Under the pieces are notes generated by a model. That model saw only the letters and a list, made by a program, of their open reading frames with translations, was not told where the DNA came from and did no database searches. From the UHGV virus genome UHGV-0065784: a stretch of DNA of 22,875 nucleotides. The stretch is one strand, 5' to 3'. Source of the DNA: a virus. Shown in pieces: positions 260 to 22,214 of this stretch. Position 1 is the first letter of the stretch. Each line of letters starts with the position of its first letter. Made by a program: the position numbers and the translations under genes.

Positions 260-470
260 CGGGAAGTCAGCGTGAGGGTTTCTGGCTACACTTTCTGCAA
301 ACAAGAAAGGAGGGCTCTTGACGGCTCCCCGCCCTGAATGACGGGGATTCCCACTTCAACAAGCCGAACCTAAGCCGCGTGCTGCGATTCAGGGTTTACA
401 GGCTCTCCGTGGGCTAACACTGCCAGCCCGGCAGCTTTAATATTACGTGCCGCGTTAATGTCGCGATCAT
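260..470 (-). ncRNA. Predicted omega-RNA (right-end RNA) region of the TnpB element, overlapping tnpB 3' end and downstream right end; extent not determined
   Basis: Established TnpB biology places the guide-RNA scaffold at the 3' end of tnpB and the right end; region contains several short stem-loops (291-309, 327-346). No folding or covariance model was run. Confidence 0.3.
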
Positions 471-1500
471 GGTCTGCGCCGCATTCAGGGCAGTGCCATT
501 TACGAACATTAAGAGGCATTTTTTGCATGGTGAAACCGCAGCAACTACAGCATTTTGAGGACGGTAAATACTGGTCAATGGCGACCACTGACCGCCCGGC
601 CCATTTGCCTTTGTACTGGAGCTGGCGAACAAGTTCGCTCCAGCCTGCGTCAGCTATTGCTTTAGACAGCTTCGGGTTGCGGATCATGTTTTTCACCTTG
701 AGGGATTCGACGCAAACAACTTGGTTTTCGTTAATCAGTTTGCGGGACAACTTGTGCAGATTGTCCATCCGGCAATCGGCGATTTTCGCGTGGAGTCGGG
801 CGACCTTTAAGCGGGCTTTAATTCGGTTTCTTGAGCCTTTTTGCTTCCTGCTTAAACGTCGCTGTAGCAGCGTTAATCGCTTCGCATATTTAGCGGTGTG
901 GCGGGGATTGTCGGTTTTGAATCCGGTATCGGTGACGAATAAATCTTTTAAGCCCACATCAATGCCGACCGTTTTAGCGGTAACAGGCATTGATACAGGT
1001 TCAAACTCACACAGGCAGGAAACAAAGTACCTGCCAGCGCTATCTCTGGAAATGGTAACGGTTGACGGCGCAGATGGTAATTCTCGACTCCAGCGAACAT
1101 CCAGCGGCGACTTGCTCTTTGCTATATACAACTCGCCGTCACGGTGTTTAAACGCGCTGGCAGTGAACTCAGCCACCTGTTTGTGCCGTTTGCTTTTGAA
1201 AGCCGGATATGCAGCTCGTCCGGCAAAGAAGTTAGCAAAGGCGGCTTGTTGGTGGCGCAACGACTGCTGGAGGGGAACGCAGGAAACATCATTCAGCCAT
1301 ATGTATTCAGGCTCTTTTTTGAGCGCCGTAAGGCGAGCGTTGGCCTGTAGATAACCGATCTTTTCTTTTCGCTCGTAGTACGCATCGGTACGCCAACGAA
1401 GGATGGAATTGTAGACGAAGCGCACACAGCCAAACGTCTGAGCTAAAAGCTCAGCCTGCTCAGTTGTCGGGTAAAACCGGTATTTATATGCGCGTTTCAT
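370..1500 (-). CDS. tnpB: TnpB (IS605 OrfB-family RNA-guided nuclease, RuvC-like plus zinc finger)
   Basis: 376-aa ORF; N-terminal OrfB-type region, RuvC-I-like GIDVGLKD, RuvC-II-like VVCVESL, zinc finger CCSCCG...CPECG, RuvC-III-like HDRDINAARNI; catalytic D/E/D positions appear intact. Confidence 0.9.
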   Translation of the reverse strand: MKRAYKYRFYPTTEQAELLAQTFGCVRFVYNSILRWRTDAYYERKEKIGYLQANARLTALKKEPEYIWLNDVSCVPLQQSLRHQQAAFANFFAGRAAYPAFKSKRHKQVAEFTASAFKHRDGELYIAKSKSPLDVRWSRELPSAPSTVTISRDSAGRYFVSCLCEFEPVSMPVTAKTVGIDVGLKDLFVTDTGFKTDNPRHTAKYAKRLTLLQRRLSRKQKGSRNRIKARLKVARLHAKIADCRMDNLHKLSRKLINENQVVCVESLKVKNMIRNPKLSKAIADAGWSELVRQLQYKGKWAGRSVVAIDQYLPSSKCCSCCGFTMQKMPLNVRKWHCPECGADHDRDINAARNIKAAGLAVLAHGEPVNPESQHAA

Positions 1501-1608: not shown

Positions 1609-2085
1609 ATGAAACTCATCAGTAACGATCTGCGCGATGGCGATAAGCTGCCGCATCGTCATGTCTTTAACGGCATGGGTTACGATGGCGATAATATTTC
1701 ACCGCATCTGGCGTGGGATGATGTTCCTGCGGGAACGAAAAGTTTTGTTGTCACCTGCTATGACCCGGATGCGCCAACCGGCTCCGGCTGGTGGCACTGG
1801 GTAGTTGTTAATTTACCCGCTGATACCCGCGTATTACCGCAAGGGTTTGGCTCTGGTCTGGTAGCTATGCCAGACGGCGTTTTGCAGACGCGTACCGACT
1901 TTGGTAAAACCGGGTACGATGGCGCAGCGCCGCCGAAAGGCGAAACCCATCGCTACATTTTTACCGTTCACGCGCTGGATGTAGAACGTATTGATGTCGA
2001 TGAAGGTGCCAGCGGCGCGATGGTCGGGTTCAACGTTCATTTTCACTCTCTGGCGAGTGCCTCGATTACTGCGATGTTTAGTTAA
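1609..2085 (+). CDS. ybhB: PEBP-family (kinase-inhibitor-like) protein YbhB
   Basis: 158-aa ORF with GGAGG 7 nt upstream of ATG; sequence matches my recollection of E. coli YbhB (MKLISNDLRDGDKLPHRH...), PEBP-like motifs. Confidence 0.9.
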   Translation: MKLISNDLRDGDKLPHRHVFNGMGYDGDNISPHLAWDDVPAGTKSFVVTCYDPDAPTGSGWWHWVVVNLPADTRVLPQGFGSGLVAMPDGVLQTRTDFGKTGYDGAAPPKGETHRYIFTVHALDVERIDVDEGASGAMVGFNVHFHSLASASITAMFS

Positions 2086-2190: not shown

Positions 2191-2330
2191 TGAACAAGAA
2201 ACAGTAAAAAACATTAATATCAATGTGTTATGAAGATTTTTGTCTAAATAATAGACTACATAATACTGCAAAACACAGCATGTGCAGTCACTATGAATCA
2301 ACTACTTAGATGGTATTAGTGACCTGTAAC
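2191..2330 (-). promoter_or_regulatory. attP P-arm remnant with Int arm-type binding sites (lambda-like)
   Basis: Reverse complement reads ...CTGTTACAGGTCACTAATACCATCTAAGTAGTTGATTCATAGTGACTGCA..., near-identical to the lambda P arm as I recall it; arm-type motifs GCAGTCACTATG (2284-2295) and AGGTCACTAAT (2315-2327); sequence nearer the core is more diverged from lambda. Confidence 0.7.
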
Positions 2331-2533
2331 AGAGCATTAGCGCAAGGTGATTTTTGTCTTCTTGCGCTAATTTTTTGTCATCAGAACATATCGCACTCCA
2401 GAGAAGCACAAAGCCTTGTGTGTCTCATAGGCTATGAAACAATCATTTTACATGGTTACTTCACTACTTCCGCACAATATGATATCGTTCACAATCTAAA
2501 AATATTAATAATTTATCCATTACCGCGGTTAAT

Positions 2534-2559
2534 GCCCGTCGCTTCCAACGGGCTTTTTT
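2534..2559 (+). terminator. Rho-independent terminator, likely the tI/sib-region remnant of a lambda-like b-region
   Basis: gcccgt-cgcttcca-acgggc stem-loop followed by TTTTTT on the plus strand; lies in lambda-like sequence beyond the P arm, where lambda has tI. Confidence 0.5.
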
Positions 2560-2705
2560 GTAAATTATATTTTTATTACCTTATATTAATATTGGTAATA
2601 TGTCTGCATGATGTTTTATATTTAATTTCGTTGACGTCAATATTTTTTGCCAATGTACTTACTTCTTTATGTGAGCAGTTCATATTTTTGACGCCAACGA
2701 AACAT

Positions 2706-5651
2706 TTAGTGCTTCCCTTCTATTAAGTCTAACCTAGCTTTTATTCTTTCTATTTCTCTGCGCTGCCATGCCGCCTCGATATAGAATAAGAGATCAGGTC
2801 TGACCCCCCATCTAGATCCTGCTGGCGTTATTTCAACGCGCTCAATGATGTCTTCCATTACCATCACTGGATTATCATCCTCATCAACAATGATGCTCCC
2901 GTCATTATCAGTCAGCGGCATTTCCCTTTGGCCAGTAATGACGTCATCATATACTGCGGGATAATCGTCATAGCAAAGAAAGGCATAGCGGCATGTTGTG
3001 CTTTCTTCTTCCATGAGTCCGTGAGAAATAAGAACATCACGAAGTTGCTGCGCGATTACACCATGATGTATCCTCGCCCCTTCTTCCCCCTTTATAGCGA
3101 CAGCGTTCAGCCATTTATAAGCGATATACCTGACGTCACCCCAGGCATCCAGCAATGCTTCGTCAGGAGAGACCGGCTCTGTCTTTAATGTTCCGTCACT
3201 GGTAATCACAGGATTGGAGCCAAGATAAACTGTCGAGAACCTGTTTCCCGGACCACCAAGAGCATTTACATTATCAAGATAAGGTTTAACATCTCCGTTC
3301 TCAAAAAGATGTTCGAGTGCGTTATATACCGCGCGACGTGGAGTACTGCTTCCGGAACCATGCAACGTTATCATTGCACCATCTGCTGAAGACGTTGTTT
3401 CACCTCCGCTAACGATTAATCTCTGAGCGGTAACATCATCAGACGGTACTTTCTTCGCAATAATGGCGTAATTACCCTCAAGTTTGACTTCCGCGCGAAC
3501 TTGTCCTGATGTACCTGCATGGACAGTCAGTGACTGGACGGCAACATCATCTGTGAAATCAACGGGTACAGGAACCGTCCTCACGCCTGACGTCGACATA
3601 AAAGTAGGAAGCGTTCTGTTAGGAGTGGCTCCGTAGACAAAATCCCTTGAAACAAATTCTTCCTGTTTAATTTTCACCCTGAAACAATACAAATCAGCCG
3701 GGTGACCATCGTGAACATAAGGATATTTTCTGTTGTTATCCCCTATGCTCCATGGGTTTAGAAAGTCTTCCCCACCGAAAATGTAGTACAGCCAGTTGTC
3801 TTTGATACAAACTGAACCAACACCAACCGCAGAGTTAACTATTCCGCCCTGATAAATCTGATCAGTAACATTAACCCACTCTACATTATCCAGACTCCAC
3901 TCATTGACGTTAACTCTGGTCATAAATGTTCTTGGATAATTTCCTGCATAACGGTTATCAGGTTCTCCTCCTTCCCACTCACCAAATGCGCGCTCACTGC
4001 CAAAAATAATCAGCTCATCGCCAACTTTGGCAAAAGGAAGGTTTGAGTGATGAACATTATTTGGGAAGCGAAGAGAATTCCATGATGTACCTAAATCAGA
4101 GCTTCTGTGCAATGAACTACCGGGTTGAGTACTTAATGTCCCCCTGGTCGTCAGATACAGAATGCCATCATAATATTTTACACATGGCTCAGATGCATTC
4201 GCCTCATATTCTACAGGTATGCGTCTGCGAACAAAGCTACCAGGAGAACCGAAAGCATCAGAGAAATAGAGTATCCCAAGCTCGCGTGGATCAATATCAC
4301 CATTATGGTAGCCAACAGCAAAACTGTTATCGCTAATCGTCGCAAAACTGTGAATCTCAGTAACAGGAGTGCTTCCGTCAACAAAAGAAGGAATAGTTCC
4401 AAGACTGGTTTTTCTCCATGGTGACGAGTGAAATGATGTACCAAAACTCCAGTATCTACCCTCGTTATTCTGATCCACATCCTGGGTATTTTGCGTCGTA
4501 ACTGTAAAAGTATTTTTATCAATAACAGTAGTCACCGTCATATTCCCGGTAACACCTGTAACACCAGAGTTTGAGAAGTTGACAAAATCACCAGCAAATA
4601 ATCCGTGATCAGTAATGCGAATATAAGCGACTTGCTGATTTGCTGCTTTCGTTATACCACCATAAACGCGAAGGCTGCGACTCATTGGGCGATCCCACAA
4701 CTCTGCAACCTGCAGTTTATTTCCGCTCACGGTCCGCGTCTCAATTACAGCAAAAAGGCGATTTCTGACAACCCCCATACTCATGCAGTGATAGTTAACT
4801 GTGGGATAGTTTTCATGTAAATCTGTAAGCCATTCCGGCGTTGTCCAGGTCTTCCCGTCATCTCCTGAGCGAACCCATGCAACATGGAGGTTATTTACAC
4901 CATGGCGGTCTCCAGCCATAAAAGGCGCATAGATGACATTGTCATATACAAACGTTTTATCCTGCGTCCAGGCGTTGTACCACGGTGTATCTGTAATTTT
5001 AAATAACTCTCCCTGGATAAAATCTTCAGAAGCATAAAAAAGAGGCTGACCCGGTATTCTCTCAAATAAAAAACGAGCATTTTTAAATCGACTGACATCT
5101 GGAAGAGTTGATACTTTAAAAGTAAGCCCTCGCCCATCTATCTTTTCACCACCTGTTGCAACAGAAAGTAATTCTGATAGAGCTGATGTGTCATCATGAA
5201 CACCATCACCAATAGCCCCCCAACCTCTTACATCATAACTGTCTCTCCATCTTGCTATCTGAAGTTTTGGGTATTTATTCGCTCCATCTGGGTCTTCTAA
5301 TTGCTGCCGTAACTGATCAGGATCATACTTCAGCACATTAGGAAAATAGAACTGCTGCGCACCATACGCATCATAAACAGCCATAGAATGGCCTTGCACG
5401 GTAACGAATTTGGCAATCTGTCCGTTATATACCGGATATCCAGCAGCGTTAATGATTATTGGTTGCGAAACAGGAATGTGAGAACCGTCTTCGTTCTCTA
5501 CATAAACCTGAATCTGGTTTTCAGGATTTACCGGGTCAGTGTCAATTTTACCGATATAAATTTTGCCATTGGCTACGGCTTTAAAAGAACGCGCCATAGT
5601 GAAGAGTTGCGAAGGCATACTCACTACAACATTGGCTGTAATGTCTGTCAT
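2706..5651 (-). CDS. Tailspike: P22-like N-terminal particle-binding domain, sialidase-like (Asp-box) receptor-degrading domain, C-terminal intramolecular chaperone (S74-type) domain; probable endosialidase
   Basis: 981-aa ORF; N-terminus [43 protein letters not shown]... closely resembles the P22 gp9 head-binding domain; Asp-box motifs SGDDGKTW and SSDLGTSW; C-terminal ~150 aa resemble self-cleaving chaperone domains of endosialidase-type tailspikes; GGAG RBS 8 nt before ATG. Confidence 0.85.
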
Positions 5652-5719
5652 TTAATTTGCTCCAGATACAAGGAATCGCCGCAGCATTGCCACAGTGATG
5701 CATTATTAATCAAACAAAG

Positions 5720-5734
5720 AGACCACTGTGGTCT
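5720..5734. promoter_or_regulatory. 15-bp palindrome AGACCACTGTGGTCT, candidate Mnt-type operator in the mnt/tailspike divergent region
   Basis: Perfect inverted repeat around a single central base, sitting between the divergent starts of mnt (5798) and tailspike (5651); similar in style to the P22 mnt operator as I remember it (GGTCCACGGTGGACC). Confidence 0.55.
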
Positions 5735-5797
5735 TATTGAGGATGCAACCAGCAGATAATAAGATGCCGATCCACTCACAAAAGCGAGGCATCAAGA

Positions 5798-6049
5798 ATG
5801 GGAAGAGATGACCCGCAATTTAATCTGCGGCTACCTTACGAATTAAAGGAAAAACTAAAACAGCGAGCCAAATCCAATGGCCGCTCTCTTAATTCAGAAT
5901 TAGTTCAGATAGTGACTGATGCTGTATCAAAGCCATCCAAAATTTCAGGCTATCGAGACGATGCGGAACGCATCGCTGATGAGCAGTCAGAGCTTGTTAA
6001 GAAGATGGTGTTTGATACGCTGAAGGATTTGTACAAAAAACCCACCTGA
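5798..6049 (+). CDS. mnt: Mnt-like ribbon-helix-helix repressor
   Basis: 83-aa ORF MGRDDPQFNLRLPYELKEKLKQRAKSNGRSLNSELVQIV...DEQSELVKKMVFDTLKDLYKKPT, highly similar to P22 Mnt from memory; GAGG RBS; divergent from the late genes as in P22. Confidence 0.9.
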   Translation: MGRDDPQFNLRLPYELKEKLKQRAKSNGRSLNSELVQIVTDAVSKPSKISGYRDDAERIADEQSELVKKMVFDTLKDLYKKPT

Positions 6050-6148: not shown

Positions 6149-6328
6149 ATGGCGAAAAAACCAGGTGAAAACACAGGAAAAAACGGCGGAATATACCAAG
6201 AAGTTGGCCCACGCGGCGGTAAGAAAGACAATTTTGCAACCGTCAAGGACAACGAAAGGCTTCCACCAACAACAAAGCCAGGTCATGGCTGGGTATTGGA
6301 TAAGCGAACTCCAGACAGCAAAAAGTAA
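6149..6328 (+). CDS. Small conserved phage protein (59 aa), YjzC-like by motif
   Basis: ATG at 6149 with GAGG 7 nt upstream and a TTGACT -35-like hexamer at 6085-6090; peptide MAKKPGENTGKNGGIYQEVGPRGGKKDNFATVKDNERLPPTTKPGHGWVL... resembles a small-protein family I recall as YjzC-like; the ORF-track start at 6134 is probably a 5-codon over-extension. Confidence 0.6.
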   Translation: MAKKPGENTGKNGGIYQEVGPRGGKKDNFATVKDNERLPPTTKPGHGWVLDKRTPDSKK

Positions 6329-6335
6329 TAATCAA

Positions 6336-6356
6336 GCCGGGTCACTCCGGCTTTTT
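6336..6356. terminator. Putative bidirectional terminator between convergent genes
   Basis: gccgg-gtcact-ccggc stem followed by TTTTT on plus strand and AT-rich on the other side; overlaps the last codons of the minus-strand gene. Confidence 0.45.
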
Positions 6357-6707
6357 GATATGTCGCTCGCAGAACTCAACAAGCCTGCTCATTAAGTAGC
6401 AGTAAGTCTCGTTGGCTCTTCCTGGTTCAACATCAACACCTACCCTTGAGCAGATATCGAATGCCATGTGAGCGCACTCATGGGCAATAGTAGATAGTTT
6501 GCCATTGAACACGCCTATCACATGCAAAACACCATTCTCGCTACTCATTGTATGAGACGCTCCGTTGGCGTCCGAGTCATGCACGTCAACGCCAAGTTTT
6601 TGATGCAGGCGTTGCCATTCTGGAAAGTCTCTACAAAACACAATTGTACCGCTCTCAAAGAGCGGAACGAGCATCTTTGGTACGTTTCCAATGTTAACTT
6701 TTTTCAT
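6342..6707 (-). CDS. Small HExxH protein, possible ImmA/IrrE-like (M78-type) mini metallopeptidase
   Basis: 121-aa ORF with AGGA 4 nt before ATG; motif HECAH followed about 20 residues later by [13 protein letters not shown], reminiscent of the HExxH...E-x-N-x-FA...LL signature of ImmA/IrrE peptidases; family assignment is from motif memory only. Confidence 0.6.
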
Positions 6708-6737
6708 GGTATCCTGCGCAAAACTAAGGAGGTTGGT

Positions 6738-7232
6738 GTGTCTGATTCTATGAGTTACGCTGTGCTAGTTGCCGCAACTCTATTTCTGGGGATAGGGTTG
6801 CAGATTGCGTGGTTCTTTTTTTCTAGTTTTATTAAACGTAAAAGAATTGAATCAAGGATATCTGAGATTTCTATTGCTATAGGGAAAAATGCTGAAAATC
6901 CAGAGAATGAGGCCTGCGCACTGAATTACCTTAAAGAAAAGTTTTCCCCTGAAAAATTTGAAAACAGAATTACTGATGCTCTTGGATTGGTAATATCAGT
7001 AATTCATATGCCACTAAGTTTGCTGATAACAGTGTGGTACTTCGCCATGATCGCCGGAAGAATATTTGGTTTCATGAATATAGAGCCTGTAGTTCTTTGG
7101 GTTCCAATGATACTGCAATTGTTGTTAAGCGTTGCTATCTTTATTTTTTCTGTTTTTATAAAAATTGTCTTCGGAAGATACCCCGGAGAAGCGAAGGGAT
7201 TTAATAAAGAATTCATAAAAACTATAAAATAA
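6738..7232 (+). CDS. Inner-membrane protein with three predicted TM helices at the sieA position of P22-like phages (candidate superinfection-exclusion protein)
   Basis: GTG start at 6738 preceded by AAGGAGG (6726-6732, 5-nt spacer); hydrophobic segments [75 protein letters not shown]; AT-rich; opposite orientation to late genes, between gp16 and mnt as sieA is in P22. No sequence match to SieA could be checked. Confidence 0.65.
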
Positions 7233-7254: not shown

Positions 7255-9096
7255 CTACTGCCGGGTAGCTTCGTTAACTAAGAGCGGGCGCACGGCAGTA
7301 GCCGCCTGATTTAGCGCTCTTTCATAAGCTGGCGTTCCAGCTTTAGTGTTTGCCAGACGTAAGAGCGCATTCCTTGCTGCTTTGGATTCATACAAGCGCA
7401 TCATTGCACCGAAACCAGCCTCAAGCCCCATTGATACGCCAAGAGTCGTAGTTGCGCCAATCGTCCTTATCCTGTTGGCTTGCGATTGCCCCGTCTGAGT
7501 TACTACATTTGCGGTGTCTGATCTTGCTGCTTGCTGTAGAACTTCATGAAGAGCATCAAGTTCTTTCATGTGCTTTCCAGAAAAAATAGTGTTGTAAATT
7601 TCACCGCCTGACTGAGATTTCAGCTTATTAACTTCAGTGATGAACTTGGCTGGAGAGTCACCGGCCTTTTCCGCTATTTTGCTGACGTAAGCTGCACGCA
7701 TAGCATCTTTCCCTTTATCATCAAGTGCGCTCCAGATTCGTTTCACGTCAGATGGTTTTCTGCTTAATACAACGGTATTTATAAGTTCAGGACTGGCTTC
7801 ACTGCTTGCCTTGTTGAGCTTGTTAGCAATGTTTTTATTAAGCACCTTATTATAAACGTTTGCATAATCGGAATTTGCTTTAAGGTATTTTGCTGCGTCT
7901 GAAGCACCGAGGTTTTTGGCAACTGCGTTACGAAGGTCTTTTGACATTGCATTCTCTACCATATTGGTAGCTGCTTTTGCCTGGTTGGGGAAGACCATGG
8001 CATCTCCCTGAACATTAGATCTAAATGCTGTTCTGTGCTGGCGCAAGAGATCAAACGTAACATCCAAATCAGTTGCAGGGTTTGCTAATTCTTCACGTAG
8101 GTTACGCAAGGATGTAAGCAGGTTTTGATTGGCAGAAGTCCCAAGCCGTTCCTGTCTTGCGATCGCTGTATTCAGAGCATTCATGGTATTTGTGGTATCA
8201 ACTGCGGCATTACCCATTTTATTGGTGACGTCATTGATAACAGCGCCAGCGGCATCCTTCCGTCCCCTTAACGTGGTGGTCAGAGATCTCACCACATCAT
8301 CAGGGTTGTACTCACCAAAACGGTCAAAATAATTGCTTACCAGCTTACTACGCGTTGCATATTGCTCCGCTCGCTTTGAGCCTGTCCCGAGCAAAGCCCC
8401 CTCAGCATCTTGAGTAAGTCCGCGAGTGAAAGCATTTTTCGGCGGGATAACATCAGATGTCATTGGTGTCACGCCCATCGATTCTGATGTGGCAATTTTC
8501 TTTGCCACTTCTGGCGCAATATCACCTTTTATAGCCGTTATTCCACGCCCTATTCCCTTTGCTGCTGCGGAAAGAACACCCTGAGCGGCAAGGTTAACTC
8601 CGGCATTTTTAGCTGCATTTTGTGCGAAATCACCTTTCTGATTTGCGGCCTCTGCCAGTGATCCAATAGCCATGCTTCCTGCCGTTCCAACTCCTGGAAC
8701 TAAATACCCGCCAATTGTTTCTCCAGCTTGAGCGTAGGGGTCTGTCGGTCTGTCTACTGGACGATAAACATCATCCAAAACCTTGGGGCCACCAAGCCCC
8801 GGACTGATTGCATTAATCAGACTTGCGCCGCCCTGTAATACGTCAAATGGTATGTTTACCAGACCACGACCAGCCTGTTCTGCAATTTGCCCTGCACTTT
8901 GACCACCAGTGAGCCAATCGCCAGCTTGTTGCATCAATGATGGTTCTTCCCGTGTTGGTGCATTATTGGCCTGATTAACTGTTTGTTGCTGAACAGCCTG
9001 ACCAGCAAAATACTCATCAATGGCGGTGCCAATATCTTCCGTGCTCGTACCATCAGGGAAGGTAAATGTCTTACCGTTTGCAGTTACTTTCATCAT
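7255..9096 (-). CDS. Ejection (injection) protein, P22 gp16-like
   Basis: 613-aa ORF; N-terminus [30 protein letters not shown] resembles P22 gp16 from memory; last gene of the ejection-protein trio; 4-nt overlap with upstream gene. Confidence 0.8.
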
Positions 9097-13855: not shown

Positions 13856-13863
13856 TTATTCAC

Positions 13864-14346
13864 CTATGCGTTTGGGATATCGCCATCAATCAGAGGGAGA
13901 TCGCCTGGATAATATCGGTCAGATGTAAACACGTCATATTTATTACCCTGTCCTACAGGAAAATCTCCACGTCGTCGCATTGAAGGAACAACCAGAGTGT
14001 CGGTCATCAAGGCATCATATGAGCGTTGGGCGTTACTGAGAACTTGCGAAGTTGGCTCAAGGCTGTAATCAGATAGCATTCTCAGCAATAACTGATAGCC
14101 TACTGCGTGTTTGTATTTTCTTGGAAGACCTGACTCATCATCAGGTAATGGCTGCTCATCTCCAGTTGCGAAAGCGTAACCAATGTCGCCGGGGTTAATC
14201 ATCCACTCGGACATCATATCTTCCAGATCATTTACACCATCTTCAATTGATTGCGGCTCAACATCAGTCAGCGATGCATTAGAAGCAATAGCAAACTTAC
14301 GAAGCGCAAAAAGGACGATCTCACCCTTTGTCAGTACTGTTGCCAT
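13864..14346 (-). CDS. Head completion / tail adaptor protein, P22 gp4-like
   Basis: 160-aa ORF; motifs SLTDVEPQS and DLEDMMSEW resemble P22 gp4 from memory; AAGG RBS. Confidence 0.8.
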   Translation of the reverse strand: MATVLTKGEIVLFALRKFAIASNASLTDVEPQSIEDGVNDLEDMMSEWMINPGDIGYAFATGDEQPLPDDESGLPRKYKHAVGYQLLLRMLSDYSLEPTSQVLSNAQRSYDALMTDTLVVPSMRRRGDFPVGQGNKYDVFTSDRYYPGDLPLIDGDIPNA

Positions 14347-20773: not shown

Positions 20774-21016
20774 TTATGCTCCGGTAGTGAACAGATCTAA
20801 CGCTTCCTTCGATTTACGCACCGCTTCGATAGTTCGGGTCGTGATATCTGAATTAGCGCCACCTGACTGGAAGTGAATTTTGAATAGCTCAAGCTTCAAC
20901 TCGTCAGTGCCGATGAATTGAAATGCTTCTTCTGCGGCTGCGTTCTGGTTCATGACCAGCTTGTAAATCTCTAACTGGAATTTCTGTTCTTCAGTCATGG
21001 GGGTAATCTCTACCAT
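20774..21016 (-). CDS. Hypothetical acidic 80-aa phage protein
   Basis: ORF with GGAG RBS 6 nt upstream of ATG; no family recognised. Confidence 0.6.
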   Translation of the reverse strand: MVEITPMTEEQKFQLEIYKLVMNQNAAAEEAFQFIGTDELKLELFKIHFQSGGANSDITTRTIEAVRKSKEALDLFTTGA

Positions 21017-21119: not shown

Positions 21120-21419
21120 CTACTGTTCGCTTAGCTTCTGCTTCAGCAAGTAACCTTCGAGCATCCAGATTTTGTTTACAGCATTCTGCCGGGCAATCTT
21201 CCGACCAATTTCTGCATCAAAGTTTTCCGGGCTTGCACAGGCACTCTCCCCGGTGACGGTGAAGCCATTCTTCAGCACCAGTACGCAGAAAGTGAGCAAC
21301 TTCAATGGTGATAAATCACGATCGCCTTCTTCTGGTTTTTCCCTGCCACAATATTCGTTGCTGGAAATGGCACCATTTCGTCCATCATAAGCAGTAAAGT
21401 AATGCTCGCTTTTAATCAC
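21120..21419 (-). CDS. Gp49-like (N4 Gp49 / Sf6 gene 66 family) protein; probable true start at ATG 21501 with an apparent frameshift in a T6/A6 run
   Basis: C-terminal region LTFCVLVLKNGFTVTGESACASPENFDAEIGRKIARQNAVNKIWMLEGYLL matches my recollection of this family; the frame is open and protein-like for 26 codons upstream of the GTG called by the ORF track. Confidence 0.65.
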   Translation of the reverse strand: MIKSEHYFTAYDGRNGAISSNEYCGREKPEEGDRDLSPLKLLTFCVLVLKNGFTVTGESACASPENFDAEIGRKIARQNAVNKIWMLEGYLLKQKLSEQ

Positions 21420-21734: not shown

Positions 21735-22214
21735 TTAAATGATTTGCCAGTCTTCAGCCATCAGGTCGCCAATGGATGGAACCCATGTAGCAAGGCGGCT
21801 CTGTGAGTTTTTCAATACAAGCGTGTCATTGAAAGTTGGCTCGCCAACATATTCGCCAAAGCCATAACCCAACGCAGACGCTAATTTTTCCCCTTTCACG
21901 AGATAAACAAACTGGTCTTTCCCATTCCATCCTGCCCGCTGCAAACTTTTGCCCTGTTTTAACGCTTCCATGGCAAGGCCGAAACTTAGTCCTGATACCG
22001 GACGATAAGCCTTTTCGAATACTTCTTTTGGACTCCAACTAACGTAGCCATCAAAGCGATCGGTGTTAGGTTTTCCGCCATCCAGATATTCAACCAGATA
22101 GCCTTCGTCCTCGCCGTTTTCTCCGGCAGGAAGCTGCCAGCCACGAAAATCGTTATATGCCTGTCTCGTCATCGGAAAGGCGTTAATCAGTTTTACGCCA
22201 ATATGCTGGGTCAT
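21735..22214 (-). CDS. Two-part protein whose C-terminal half resembles DUF2829 (Tad2-type anti-Thoeris sponge family)
   Basis: 159-aa ORF; C-terminal motifs FGLAMEALKQGKSLQRAGWNGKDQFVYLV and ...WVPSIGDLMAEDWQII resemble what I remember of DUF2829; located between the lysis cassette and terminase, a typical moron site. Confidence 0.6.
   Translation of the reverse strand: MTQHIGVKLINAFPMTRQAYNDFRGWQLPAGENGEDEGYLVEYLDGGKPNTDRFDGYVSWSPKEVFEKAYRPVSGLSFGLAMEALKQGKSLQRAGWNGKDQFVYLVKGEKLASALGYGFGEYVGEPTFNDTLVLKNSQSRLATWVPSIGDLMAEDWQII

What the first reader, a model, noticed from the sequence alone, without database searches (positions are those of the whole stretch)
6342..6707. Mini HExxH protein with ImmA/IrrE-like signature: candidate protease anti-repressor or defense effector
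The 121-aa protein carries HECAH followed about 20 residues later by [13 protein letters not shown], which resembles the HExxH...E-x-N-x-FA...LL core of ImmA/IrrE (COG2856) zinc peptidases that cleave repressors in mobile elements. It sits where P22 has its immI region, and the ant anti-repressor gene is absent from this prophage. A repressor-cleaving protease substituting for Ant, or a protease arm of a defense pair with the adjacent membrane protein, are both plausible. The family assignment rests on motif memory, not a search.
Basis: inference. Interest (0 to 1): 0.65.

Follow-up and report, generated by a model that had tools for sequence, protein, structure and literature searches.

The report
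Conserved mini zinc-protease-like phage gene hkcC
The 121-residue protein is real and carries a strongly conserved zinc-protease signature, but it is the long-known, function-unknown gene hkcC of phages P22 and HK620, part of a large uncharacterised phage family, and it is neither an ImmA/IrrE repressor-cleaving protease nor a stand-in for the Ant anti-repressor.

Summary
Window 6342..6707 (-) encodes a 121-aa protein with HECAH (aa 76-80) and [13 protein letters not shown] (aa 98-110). It is the only HExxH in 15,338 open-frame residues of the window.

H76, E77, H80 and E100 are invariant in 103 diverse relatives. The family has 546 clusters at 50% identity, almost all stand-alone proteins of about 120 aa. 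Synonymous differences outnumber non-synonymous ones 123 to 17. The AlphaFold2 model is confident (pLDDT 89), and its order of strands and helices fits a minimal zincin.

The interpretation mostly fails:
- No Peptidase_M78/ImmA-IrrE, NCBIfam or PADLOC match. Only sub-threshold SprT-like hits around the motif, and no significant match to any solved structure.
- The gene is hkcC of HK620 (99% identical), listed as "unknown" in the literature. It is intact but unannotated in RefSeq P22, where it sits alongside arc and ant.
- In 80 prophages it occurs with or without ant and with or without sieA.
- It lies on the late-operon strand (16 > hkcC > 9).
- Relatives usually lie between the lysis and terminase genes, and some occur in T7-like and N4-like phages.

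Best reading: an accessory minimal gluzincin-like metallohydrolase with an unknown substrate.

The parts
6342..6707 (-). hkcC coding sequence (121 aa, ATG start, TGA stop); member of phrog_1365
   Evidence: ORF list. phrog_1365 E 1.7e-39. 99.2% identical to HK620 hkcC and to the unannotated P22 ORF. Purifying selection. AF2 pLDDT 89.
6468..6482 (-). Codons for H76-E77-C78-A79-H80, the HExxH motif: two presumed zinc ligands and the presumed catalytic base
   Evidence: Read from the sequence. H76, E77 and H80 are invariant in 103 relatives. The motif lies in the predicted helix 71-88.
6378..6416 (-). Codons for A98-V110 ([13 protein letters not shown]), with E100 (6408..6410) as the presumed third zinc ligand and Y104 nearly invariant
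   Evidence: E100 invariant; Y104 and L105 conserved in at least 90%. E100 begins the predicted helix 100-116. The spacing matches thermolysin E166.
6712..6715 (-). AGGA Shine-Dalgarno-like sequence 4 nt upstream of the hkcC ATG
   Evidence: Upstream sequence GCGCAGGATACC-ATG on the - strand.
6677..6707 (+). sieA promoter as annotated in RefSeq P22, 31/31 identical here. It lies on the opposite strand inside the first 10 codons of hkcC.
   Evidence: P22 NC_002371 feature 13861..13891; identity checked.
6334..6356 (.). Hairpin overlapping the hkcC stop codon. It is annotated as the mnt/orf59a terminator in P22 and as the 'bidirectional terminator tORF59A' in HK620. The T-run follows it only on the + strand.
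   Evidence: 23/23 identical to P22.
6738..7232 (+). sieA (superinfection exclusion, type A). It is a divergent neighbour and not a functional partner. The start is GTG 6738 or ATG 6750.
   Evidence: phrog_7745 E 2.8e-106; P22 annotation; co-occurs in only 13/80 loci.
6149..6328 (+). orf59a homologue (unknown function), convergent with hkcC
   Evidence: phrog_3202 E 1.3e-31; P22 annotation.
5798..6049 (+). mnt (Arc/Mnt ribbon-helix-helix repressor), present without arc or ant
   Evidence: Pfam Arc 2.8e-22 and Repressor_Mnt 2.2e-18; ant and arc absent.
7255..9096 (-). Gene 16 (ejection protein), the upstream late-operon gene on the same strand as hkcC. No terminator-like site was found on the - strand between them.
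2706..5651 (-). Tailspike (gene 9 homologue), the downstream late-operon gene on the same strand as hkcC
   Evidence: Pfam Head_binding plus endosialidase domains. Late transcripts read through the 'ant moron' into gene 9 (PMC2629481).

Best explanation
The ORF is hkcC, a real accessory phage gene. It encodes a cytoplasmic, stand-alone protein of about 13.6 kDa from a large uncharacterised phage family (phrog_1365).

The family's only invariant residues are His-Glu-x-x-His on one helix and a Glu 20 residues after the second His, at the start of the next helix. The most likely biochemistry (inferred, not shown) is a minimal gluzincin-type zinc metallohydrolase. H76, H80 and E100 would hold the zinc, E77 would act as the general base, and the nearly invariant Y104 could help stabilise the transition state.

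In P22-like and other lambdoid phages the gene lies on the late-operon strand in accessory slots. In this window that slot is between ejection gene 16 and the tailspike. In most relatives it is between the lysis cassette and the terminase genes. By position, it is therefore made from the late transcript during lytic growth rather than from the prophage.

Its substrate is unknown. The most probable role is cleavage of a host protein, or less likely a phage protein, as a host-takeover or counter-defence function. It does not work through the prophage repressor or through SieA.
For: Real gene:
- 123 synonymous against 17 non-synonymous codon differences.
- 546 clusters at 50% identity with E<=1e-3, almost all 100-140 aa.
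- Confident AF2 model, pLDDT 89 and pTM 0.83.

Catalytic signature:
- H76, E77, H80 and E100 are invariant; Y104, G49, P15, G90 and L105 are conserved in at least 90%.
- The spacing equals that of thermolysin, with a weak in-register alignment to neutral protease and thermolysin over aa 48-115 (E 0.09-0.7).
- A subfamily profile aligns the N-terminal half, up to HExxH, with the astacin-like myroilysin (E 0.011-0.022).
- The predicted order strand-strand-helix-strand-strand-helix(HExxH)-helix(E100) is what I expect of a zincin core (the comparison rests on my own knowledge of the fold).
- 28 of 103 members give weak SprT-like Pfam hits centred on the motif.
- BFVD structural neighbours are small phage proteins, three of them auto-named SprT-like or metalloprotease.

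Late and accessory:
- Same strand as genes 16 and 9, with no promoter-like or terminator-like site on that strand upstream.
- P-late transcripts traverse this region into gene 9 (PMC2629481).
- In 93 diverse loci the usual order is endolysin, Rz, family gene, small terminase, large terminase on one strand.
- That slot also holds Tad2-like and Acb2/Tad1-like anti-defence genes, including a Tad2-like gene in this window.

No dedicated partner: neighbours vary.
Against: - No curated family accepts it (Pfam, NCBIfam, PADLOC).
- The model's coordinates could not be inspected, so the geometry of the presumed zinc site is unverified.
- The broad family profile did not strengthen the thermolysin match.
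- Expression timing is inferred from position only. In a phiKMV-like and an N4-like phage the gene lies among non-late genes, so late expression is not universal.
- There is no experimental information on zinc binding, activity, substrate or phenotype. The literature lists hkcC as unknown (PMC2629481).
Confidence: 0.6

Rival explanations
1. ImmA/IrrE-type anti-repressor protease that cleaves the prophage repressor and replaces the missing Ant.
For: It has HExxH plus a downstream Glu in a small protein of a mobile element. arc and ant are absent from this window. The gene lies in the region that holds immI in P22.
Against: - No Peptidase_M78 match for the query, and the family is not among the 25 of 37 families listed for 103 relatives.
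- No IrrE in the sequence searches at E<=10 or among the listed fold matches; models labelled IrrE match only marginally (E 0.04, TM 0.3-0.4).
- The gene is intact in P22 together with arc and ant.
- It occurs with ant in about 19 of 80 loci and without it in about 61.
- It is never paired with an XRE/ImmR-like repressor gene; its neighbours are lysis and terminase genes.
- Homologues with the motif occur in N4-like and phiKMV-like phages, which I take from general knowledge to be virulent.
- It lies on the late-operon strand, so by position it would be made after induction, not before.
Confidence: 0.03
2. Protease arm of a two-gene prophage defence or exclusion system with the adjacent membrane protein SieA.
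For: The two genes are adjacent and divergent, 30-42 bp apart, and the sieA promoter sits inside hkcC.
Against: [quoted passage not shown]
- P22-type sieA accompanies hkcC in only 13 of 80 loci. Other loci have hkcB or unrelated genes.
- Paralogues and distant relatives have no membrane-protein partner.
- No PADLOC hit.
- hkcC points away from the prophage-expressed transcription unit, and no promoter-like site was found on its own strand.
Confidence: 0.04
3. SprT/Spartan-like DNA-associated protease that removes proteins bound or crosslinked to phage DNA before or during packaging.
For: - Weak SprT-like Pfam hits in 28 of 103 members.
- BFVD neighbours are named SprT-like.
- The gene is often next to terminase genes.
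- Longer members carry Lys/Arg-rich C-terminal tails that could bind nucleic acid.
Against: - All SprT-like hits are below the gathering score, and most cover only about 18 residues around HExxH.
- The third conserved ligand here is Glu, whereas SprT, Spartan and Wss1 use His (my knowledge of that family).
- There is no zinc-ribbon or other DNA-binding subdomain.
- The 121-aa form is mildly acidic (pI 6.4; family median 5.9).
- No Spartan or Wss1 appears among the listed PDB matches.
Confidence: 0.12
4. A zinc-binding but non-proteolytic protein: a pseudo-protease, binder or inhibitor, or a hydrolase of a non-peptide substrate.
For: The protein is very small for a protease. There is no match to solved zincin structures, and no recognisable substrate-binding C-terminal subdomain.
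Against: The presumed general-base Glu (E77) is invariant along with the three presumed ligands. From my own knowledge, that pattern is typical of active enzymes, and soluble gluzincins of about 105-110 aa have been described.
Confidence: 0.15
5. Not a gene: a chance ORF antisense to the sieA promoter region, as its absence from RefSeq P22 annotation might suggest.
For: It is not annotated in NC_002371 or AB426868.
Against: Purifying selection. Hundreds of diverged homologues keep the same length and motif. The structure prediction is confident. It is annotated as hkcC in HK620 and as a CDS in many P22-like records.
Confidence: 0.01

Closest known systems
hkcC of coliphage HK620 / unannotated ORF of Salmonella phage P22 (phrog_1365)
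   Same: The same gene: 120/121 residues identical, in the same place between gene 16 and gene 9, on the same strand. It is listed as a gene of unknown function in the P22 'ant moron' (PMC2629481).
   Different: Nothing of substance. This window lacks arc and ant and carries an endosialidase tailspike. The zinc-protease-like signature is not mentioned in PMC2629481 or PMC8022706, the two papers I searched for the term 'metallo'.
Paralogues orf-129 (ST64T, L), gene 70 (epsilon34), ORF47 (ST104) and mEp-phage homologues
   Same: Same family (38-40% identity), same motif, same late-operon orientation.
   Different: They lie between the lysis cassette and the small terminase gene instead of between genes 16 and 9. 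Some phages carry both copies. The mEp versions add an acidic and Lys/Arg-rich C-terminal tail.
ImmA/IrrE metallopeptidases (Peptidase_M78, COG2856)
   Same: A small HExxH domain with a downstream Glu ligand, common in mobile elements.
   Different: There is no HMM or convincing fold match. The order around the Glu differs: A-N-E here against E-x-x-A-N in M78 as I recall it. There is no adjacent cognate HTH repressor. The gene lies in the late operon, and the family also occurs in T7-like and N4-like phages.
SprT-like / Spartan / Wss1 (PF10263 and relatives)
   Same: The local sequence around T-L-x-H-E-x-x-H-x-x-F gives weak Pfam hits. BFVD structural neighbours carry this name.
   Different: The hits are sub-threshold (at most 22.6 bits against a gathering score of 25.6). 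The third conserved ligand is Glu, not His (the His is from my knowledge of that family). There is no DNA-binding subdomain.
Thermolysin-type gluzincins (M4) and minimal soluble gluzincins ('minigluzincins', about 105-110 aa; recalled from memory, not retrieved here)
   Same: HExxH-x19-E spacing with N-E at the start of the next helix. The size resembles that of minimal gluzincin scaffolds.
   Different: Sequence similarity is only marginal (E 0.09-0.7). No solved gluzincin appears among the listed structure-search matches. It lacks the thermolysin C-terminal domain.

Membership tests
ImmA/IrrE (Peptidase_M78, PF06114 / COG2856) | Significant match to the family profile | tested here: not met
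   No such hit for the query at E<=10. The family is not among the 25 of 37 families listed for 103 relatives at E<=1. No NCBIfam hit.
ImmA/IrrE (Peptidase_M78, PF06114 / COG2856) | HExxH with a downstream Glu as third zinc ligand | tested here: met
   H76, E77, H80 and E100 are invariant. This feature is shared by all gluzincins and is not specific to M78.
ImmA/IrrE (Peptidase_M78, PF06114 / COG2856) | Gene paired with its cognate HTH repressor (ImmR/XRE-like) | tested here: not met
   Neighbours are sieA, hkcB or other genes and orf59a in P22-like loci. Elsewhere they are lysis and terminase genes.
ImmA/IrrE (Peptidase_M78, PF06114 / COG2856) | Fold similarity to IrrE/ImmA | tested here: not met
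ImmA/IrrE (Peptidase_M78, PF06114 / COG2856) | Cleaves a repressor to induce the element | not testable with these tools
   Needs biochemistry or genetics. The family's presence in N4-like and phiKMV-like phages argues against it.
SprT-like (PF10263) | Score above the Pfam gathering threshold | tested here: not met
   The best of 103 members scores 22.6 bits against a threshold of 25.6. Most hits cover about 18 residues around HExxH. The query itself has no hit.
SprT-like (PF10263) | Third zinc ligand is a His shortly after HExxH (from my knowledge of Spartan and Wss1) | tested here: not met
   There is no conserved His after H80; the conserved residue is E100.
Gluzincins (zincins with HExxH plus a Glu ligand) | HExxH on one helix and a ligand Glu on the following helix | tested here: met
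   Motif positions. The predicted helices are 71-88 and 100-116. The four residues are invariant. The spacing equals that of thermolysin.
Gluzincins (zincins with HExxH plus a Glu ligand) | Zincin fold confirmed against solved structures | tested here: inconclusive
Gluzincins (zincins with HExxH plus a Glu ligand) | Binds zinc and hydrolyses peptide bonds | not testable with these tools
   Needs metal analysis and activity assays with E77 and H76/H80 mutants.
phrog_1365 / hkcC family | Full-length match to the family profile | tested here: met
   E 1.7e-39 over residues 1-121. All 103 aligned relatives hit the same PHROG.
Known anti-phage defence proteins (PADLOC-DB) | Match to any defence-system model | tested here: not met
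   0 families at E<=10.

The most novel reading that the evidence does not exclude
HkcC-family proteins are a widespread class of minimal phage metalloproteases of about 120 aa. During lytic growth they would cleave a specific host immunity or sensor protein, that is, a protease-based counter-defence. The model phage P22 has carried such a gene unannotated, and phages with two paralogues would target two different host proteins.
Probability: 0.2. Interest if true: 0.75.

Novelty: new variant of a known kind. Interest (0 to 1): 0.4.

Why it matters
P22 and HK620 are classic model phages. hkcC has been listed as "unknown" in the literature (PMC2629481, 2008) and is missing from the RefSeq P22 annotation.

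Recognising it as a member of a large phage family with an invariant zinc-hydrolase signature gives a concrete, easily tested hypothesis: catalytic-Glu mutants, substrate trapping, and plating on hosts with different defence systems. The gene also sits in accessory slots that hold known anti-defence genes.

Practically, the result also closes off the more exciting readings. It is not an Ant replacement, not an ImmA-type inducer and not a SieA partner.

Tried and rejected
- Pfam, NCBIfam and PADLOC scans of the query gave nothing meaningful. The only hits were chance lantibiotic matches on the 'HEC' stretch.
- phmmer and hmmsearch against PDB sequences gave only marginal protease hits.
- The precomputed Pfam column for 141 database homologues was empty for all 120 listed.
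- Pfam scans of longer family members, looking for informative fused domains, found none. The extensions are low-complexity acidic and basic tails.
- Literature searches for hkcC, orf59a, SprT-like with anti-defence, and phage HExxH metalloproteases found no functional study of this gene.
- The search for related loci with the broad alignment A3 failed for lack of a conserved stretch. The first viral scan returned only near-identical P22-like loci, so subfamily alignments were used instead.
- My first naive gene caller lost sieA because the long upstream-extended ORF overlapped hkcC. It was replaced by one that trims starts.
- A conserved partner gene was looked for and not found.

Full report
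**What is there.** Window 6342..6707 on the - strand is a 121-aa ORF with an ATG start and an AGGA sequence 4 nt upstream. HECAH is aa 76-80 (window 6468..6482). [13 protein letters not shown] is aa 98-110, and E100 is encoded at 6408..6410. This is the only HExxH in 15,338 residues of open segments of at least 60 aa over all six frames.

The neighbours are as follows:
- endosialidase tailspike, 2706..5651 (-)
- mnt, 5798..6049 (+)
- orf59a homologue, 6149..6328 (+)
- the target ORF (-)
- sieA, 6738/6750..7232 (+)
- gene 16, 7255..9096 (-)

arc and ant are absent from the window.

**It is a real gene and a known one.** The DNA is about 96% identical to P22. The same ORF is intact in P22, with a single H43Q difference, between orf59a and sieA and alongside arc and ant. 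It is not annotated in AB426868 or in RefSeq NC_002371. In those records only the sieA promoter and the mnt/orf59a terminator are annotated over it. The promoter lies inside its first 10 codons on the other strand, and the terminator overlaps its stop codon. Both are 100% identical in the window.

HK620 annotates the gene as hkcC, "unknown". Villafane et al. 2008 list hkcC and 59a as the two genes of unknown function in the P22 "ant moron" (PMC2629481). Among 44 DNA alleles from 80 prophages there are 123 synonymous and 17 non-synonymous codon differences from the window, and all 17 are the same H43Q change.

**Family.** The protein matches phrog_1365 (unknown function) at E 1.7e-39. An exhaustive profile search found 546 clusters at 50% identity with E<=1e-3, nearly all stand-alone proteins of 100-140 aa. 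In a 103-sequence alignment (23-78% identity to the query) the only invariant residues are H76, E77, H80 and E100. P15, G49, G90, Y104 and L105 are conserved in at least 90% (independent alignment). All 103 members hit phrog_1365. None of the 120 listed database homologues carries a precomputed Pfam domain.

**Is it ImmA/IrrE?** No.
- Pfam gives no Peptidase_M78 hit for the query at E<=10.
- That family is not among the 25 of 37 families listed for the 103 relatives.
- NCBIfam and PADLOC give nothing.
- No IrrE appears in the sequence searches at E<=10 or among the listed fold matches.
- BFVD models labelled IrrE match only marginally (E 0.04, TM 0.28-0.41).

The closest curated family by sequence is SprT-like (PF10263). 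It is hit weakly by 28 of 103 members. All hits are below the gathering score, and most cover only about 18 residues around the HExxH motif.

**Is it a zincin at all?** Probably, but this is inferred.
- The AF2 model is confident (pLDDT 89, pTM 0.83). Its element order is strand, strand, helix, strand, strand, helix carrying HExxH, then a helix beginning at E100. From my own knowledge, that is the order of a minimal zincin core.
- The H76-to-E100 spacing equals thermolysin H142-to-E166. phmmer aligns aa 48-115 in register with neutral protease and thermolysin (E 0.09-0.7).
- A subfamily profile aligns the N-terminal half, from the WP..V.V.LYGG stretch to HExxH, with the astacin-like myroilysin (E 0.011-0.022).

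BFVD gave 26 hits with E<1e-3. All are small phage proteins, mostly unnamed, and three are auto-named SprT-like or metalloprotease.

**Context and expression.** hkcC is on the same strand as genes 16 and 9. No promoter-like or terminator-like site was found on that strand between gene 16 and hkcC. The literature states that P-late transcripts read through this region into the tailspike gene (PMC2629481). The divergent sieA and the convergent orf59a and mnt are the prophage-expressed units. By position, then, hkcC is a late-message gene.

Paralogues with 38-40% identity occur in ST64T (orf-129), L, epsilon34 (gene 70) and ST104 (ORF47). They lie between the Rz gene and the small terminase gene, again on the late strand. 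Some phages carry both copies.

I examined 93 further loci holding 66 distinct proteins, drawn from IMG/VR and from bacterial genomes. The usual arrangement is endolysin, Rz spanin, one or two small accessory genes, the family gene, small terminase, large terminase. Both flanking genes are on the same strand in 56 of the 93 loci.

That slot also holds DUF2560, gp49/66, Rha and KilA-N genes. Single loci hold Tad2-like, Acb2/Tad1-like and PF18894 "phage metallopeptidase" genes. In this window the same slot carries a Tad2-like gene.

Family members with the full motif also occur in an N4-like phage (phCDa gp24) and a phiKMV-like phage (Kurepalu-1 gp34), among non-late genes. I take these phage groups to be virulent from general knowledge.

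*Ant substitute.* hkcC coexists with ant in P22. In 80 hkcC loci, ant is present in about 19 and absent in about 61. HK620 has hkcC with only remnants of immI. The relatives in T7-like and N4-like phages argue the same way.

*Defence pair with SieA.* P22-type sieA is the neighbour in only 13 of 80 loci and hkcB in 8, with other genes in the rest. [quoted passage not shown] No conserved partner gene exists anywhere in the family.

**Most likely mechanism.** Shown:
- It is a conserved, selected, stand-alone protein of about 13.6 kDa, mildly acidic (pI 6.4; family median 5.9).
- It has an invariant HExxH...E signature.
- In lambdoid phages it lies on the late-operon strand in accessory slots.

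Inferred:
- Zinc is bound by H76, H80 and E100, with E77 as the general base, giving hydrolysis of a peptide bond.
- The target is a host or phage protein, and the protein acts as a non-essential host-takeover or counter-defence function.
- The absence of any signal peptide or transmembrane segment comes from my reading of the sequence, not from a predictor.

The substrate is unknown. One weaker alternative is a DNA-associated, SprT-like role. It is hinted at by proximity to the terminase genes and by Lys/Arg-rich C-terminal tails on longer members such as the mEp-phage versions.

**Novelty and score.** The gene itself is known, as an ORF of unknown function. The zinc-hydrolase signature is not mentioned in PMC2629481 or PMC8022706, the two papers I searched for it. 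No curated family covers it. I rate it a new variant of a known kind: a minimal, phage-specific HExxH...E family. It is of moderate interest because it sits in a model phage and is directly testable, but nothing so far points to an unusual mechanism.

Noticed in passing
window 21735..22214 (-): A 159-aa protein with a C-terminal Tad2-like (anti-Thoeris) domain (PF11195, E 1.5e-21). It lies in the accessory slot between the Rz gene and the small terminase gene, next to a gp49/66-family gene (21120..21419) and a DUF2560 gene (20774..21016). hkcC paralogues occupy this same slot in other phages.
   Followed up: partly
window 2706..5651 (-): The tailspike combines the P22 head-binding domain with a complete endosialidase (beta-propeller, beta-barrel, tail-spike and S74 chaperone domains). 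The prophage is therefore a K1-capsule-specific P22-like phage of the CUS-3 type. Unlike the published description of CUS-3, it has no ant in the 16-9 region.
   Followed up: partly
window 370..1500 (-) and 1609..2085 (+): An IS605-family OrfB/TnpB-like protein (OrfB_IS605, Cas12f1-like TNB and HTH domains) and a PEBP-family protein lie just beyond the tailspike, perhaps at or outside the prophage end. A further 138-aa ORF (2310..2726 +) has no Pfam hit.
   Followed up: no
window 5652..6049: mnt is present as an orphan. Only about 146 bp separate it from the tailspike start, with no arc, ant or sar. The ST64T/L-type regions described in the literature are similar. What Mnt regulates here is unclear.
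   Followed up: no
L083 (P22 NC_002371 13861..14223) and L001 3392..3769: RefSeq and AB426868 P22 records do not annotate hkcC, although the ORF is intact and conserved. The annotated sieA promoter lies antisense within its first 10 codons, so late transcription of hkcC and prophage transcription of sieA run head-on through the same DNA.
   Followed up: partly
phage records (e.g. GQ422451 Phi75, GQ422450 UAB_Phi20, NC_011802 SE1, GU573886 ST160): Some P22-like phages carry two family copies: the hkcC type in the 16-9 region and the orf-129 type after the lysis genes. P22 has only the first and ST64T/L only the second. This suggests non-redundant specificities.
   Followed up: no
L086 4001..4585 (mEp044 gp72); P0263, P0116, P0133, P0150: Longer family members (about 175-195 aa) add an acidic stretch and then a Lys/Arg-rich C-terminal tail. 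In E. coli lambdoid phages the tail ends ...VPRVMSFKRG. It could be a nucleic-acid-binding or targeting tail. No Pfam domain was found.
   Followed up: partly
neighbour proteins of loci L090-L185 (alignment A6): In single loci the slot next to the family gene holds a PF18894 'putative phage metallopeptidase' (E 1.6e-43) or an Acb2/Tad1 hairpin-domain protein (E 1.1e-12). The output is aggregated, so the loci were not identified.
   Followed up: no
window 6149..6328 (+): The orf59a homologue (phrog_3202) gives a weak YjzC-like Pfam hit (E 0.0017, below threshold). It is conserved with hkcC in most P22-like loci, and its function is unknown.
   Followed up: no
L088 4007..4276 (Aeromonas phage Lolek gene 61): The T7-like phage Lolek has a family member as its last gene, after the lysis genes. 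It keeps HExxH but lacks the NE helix, so it appears truncated or frameshifted near the genome end.
   Followed up: no
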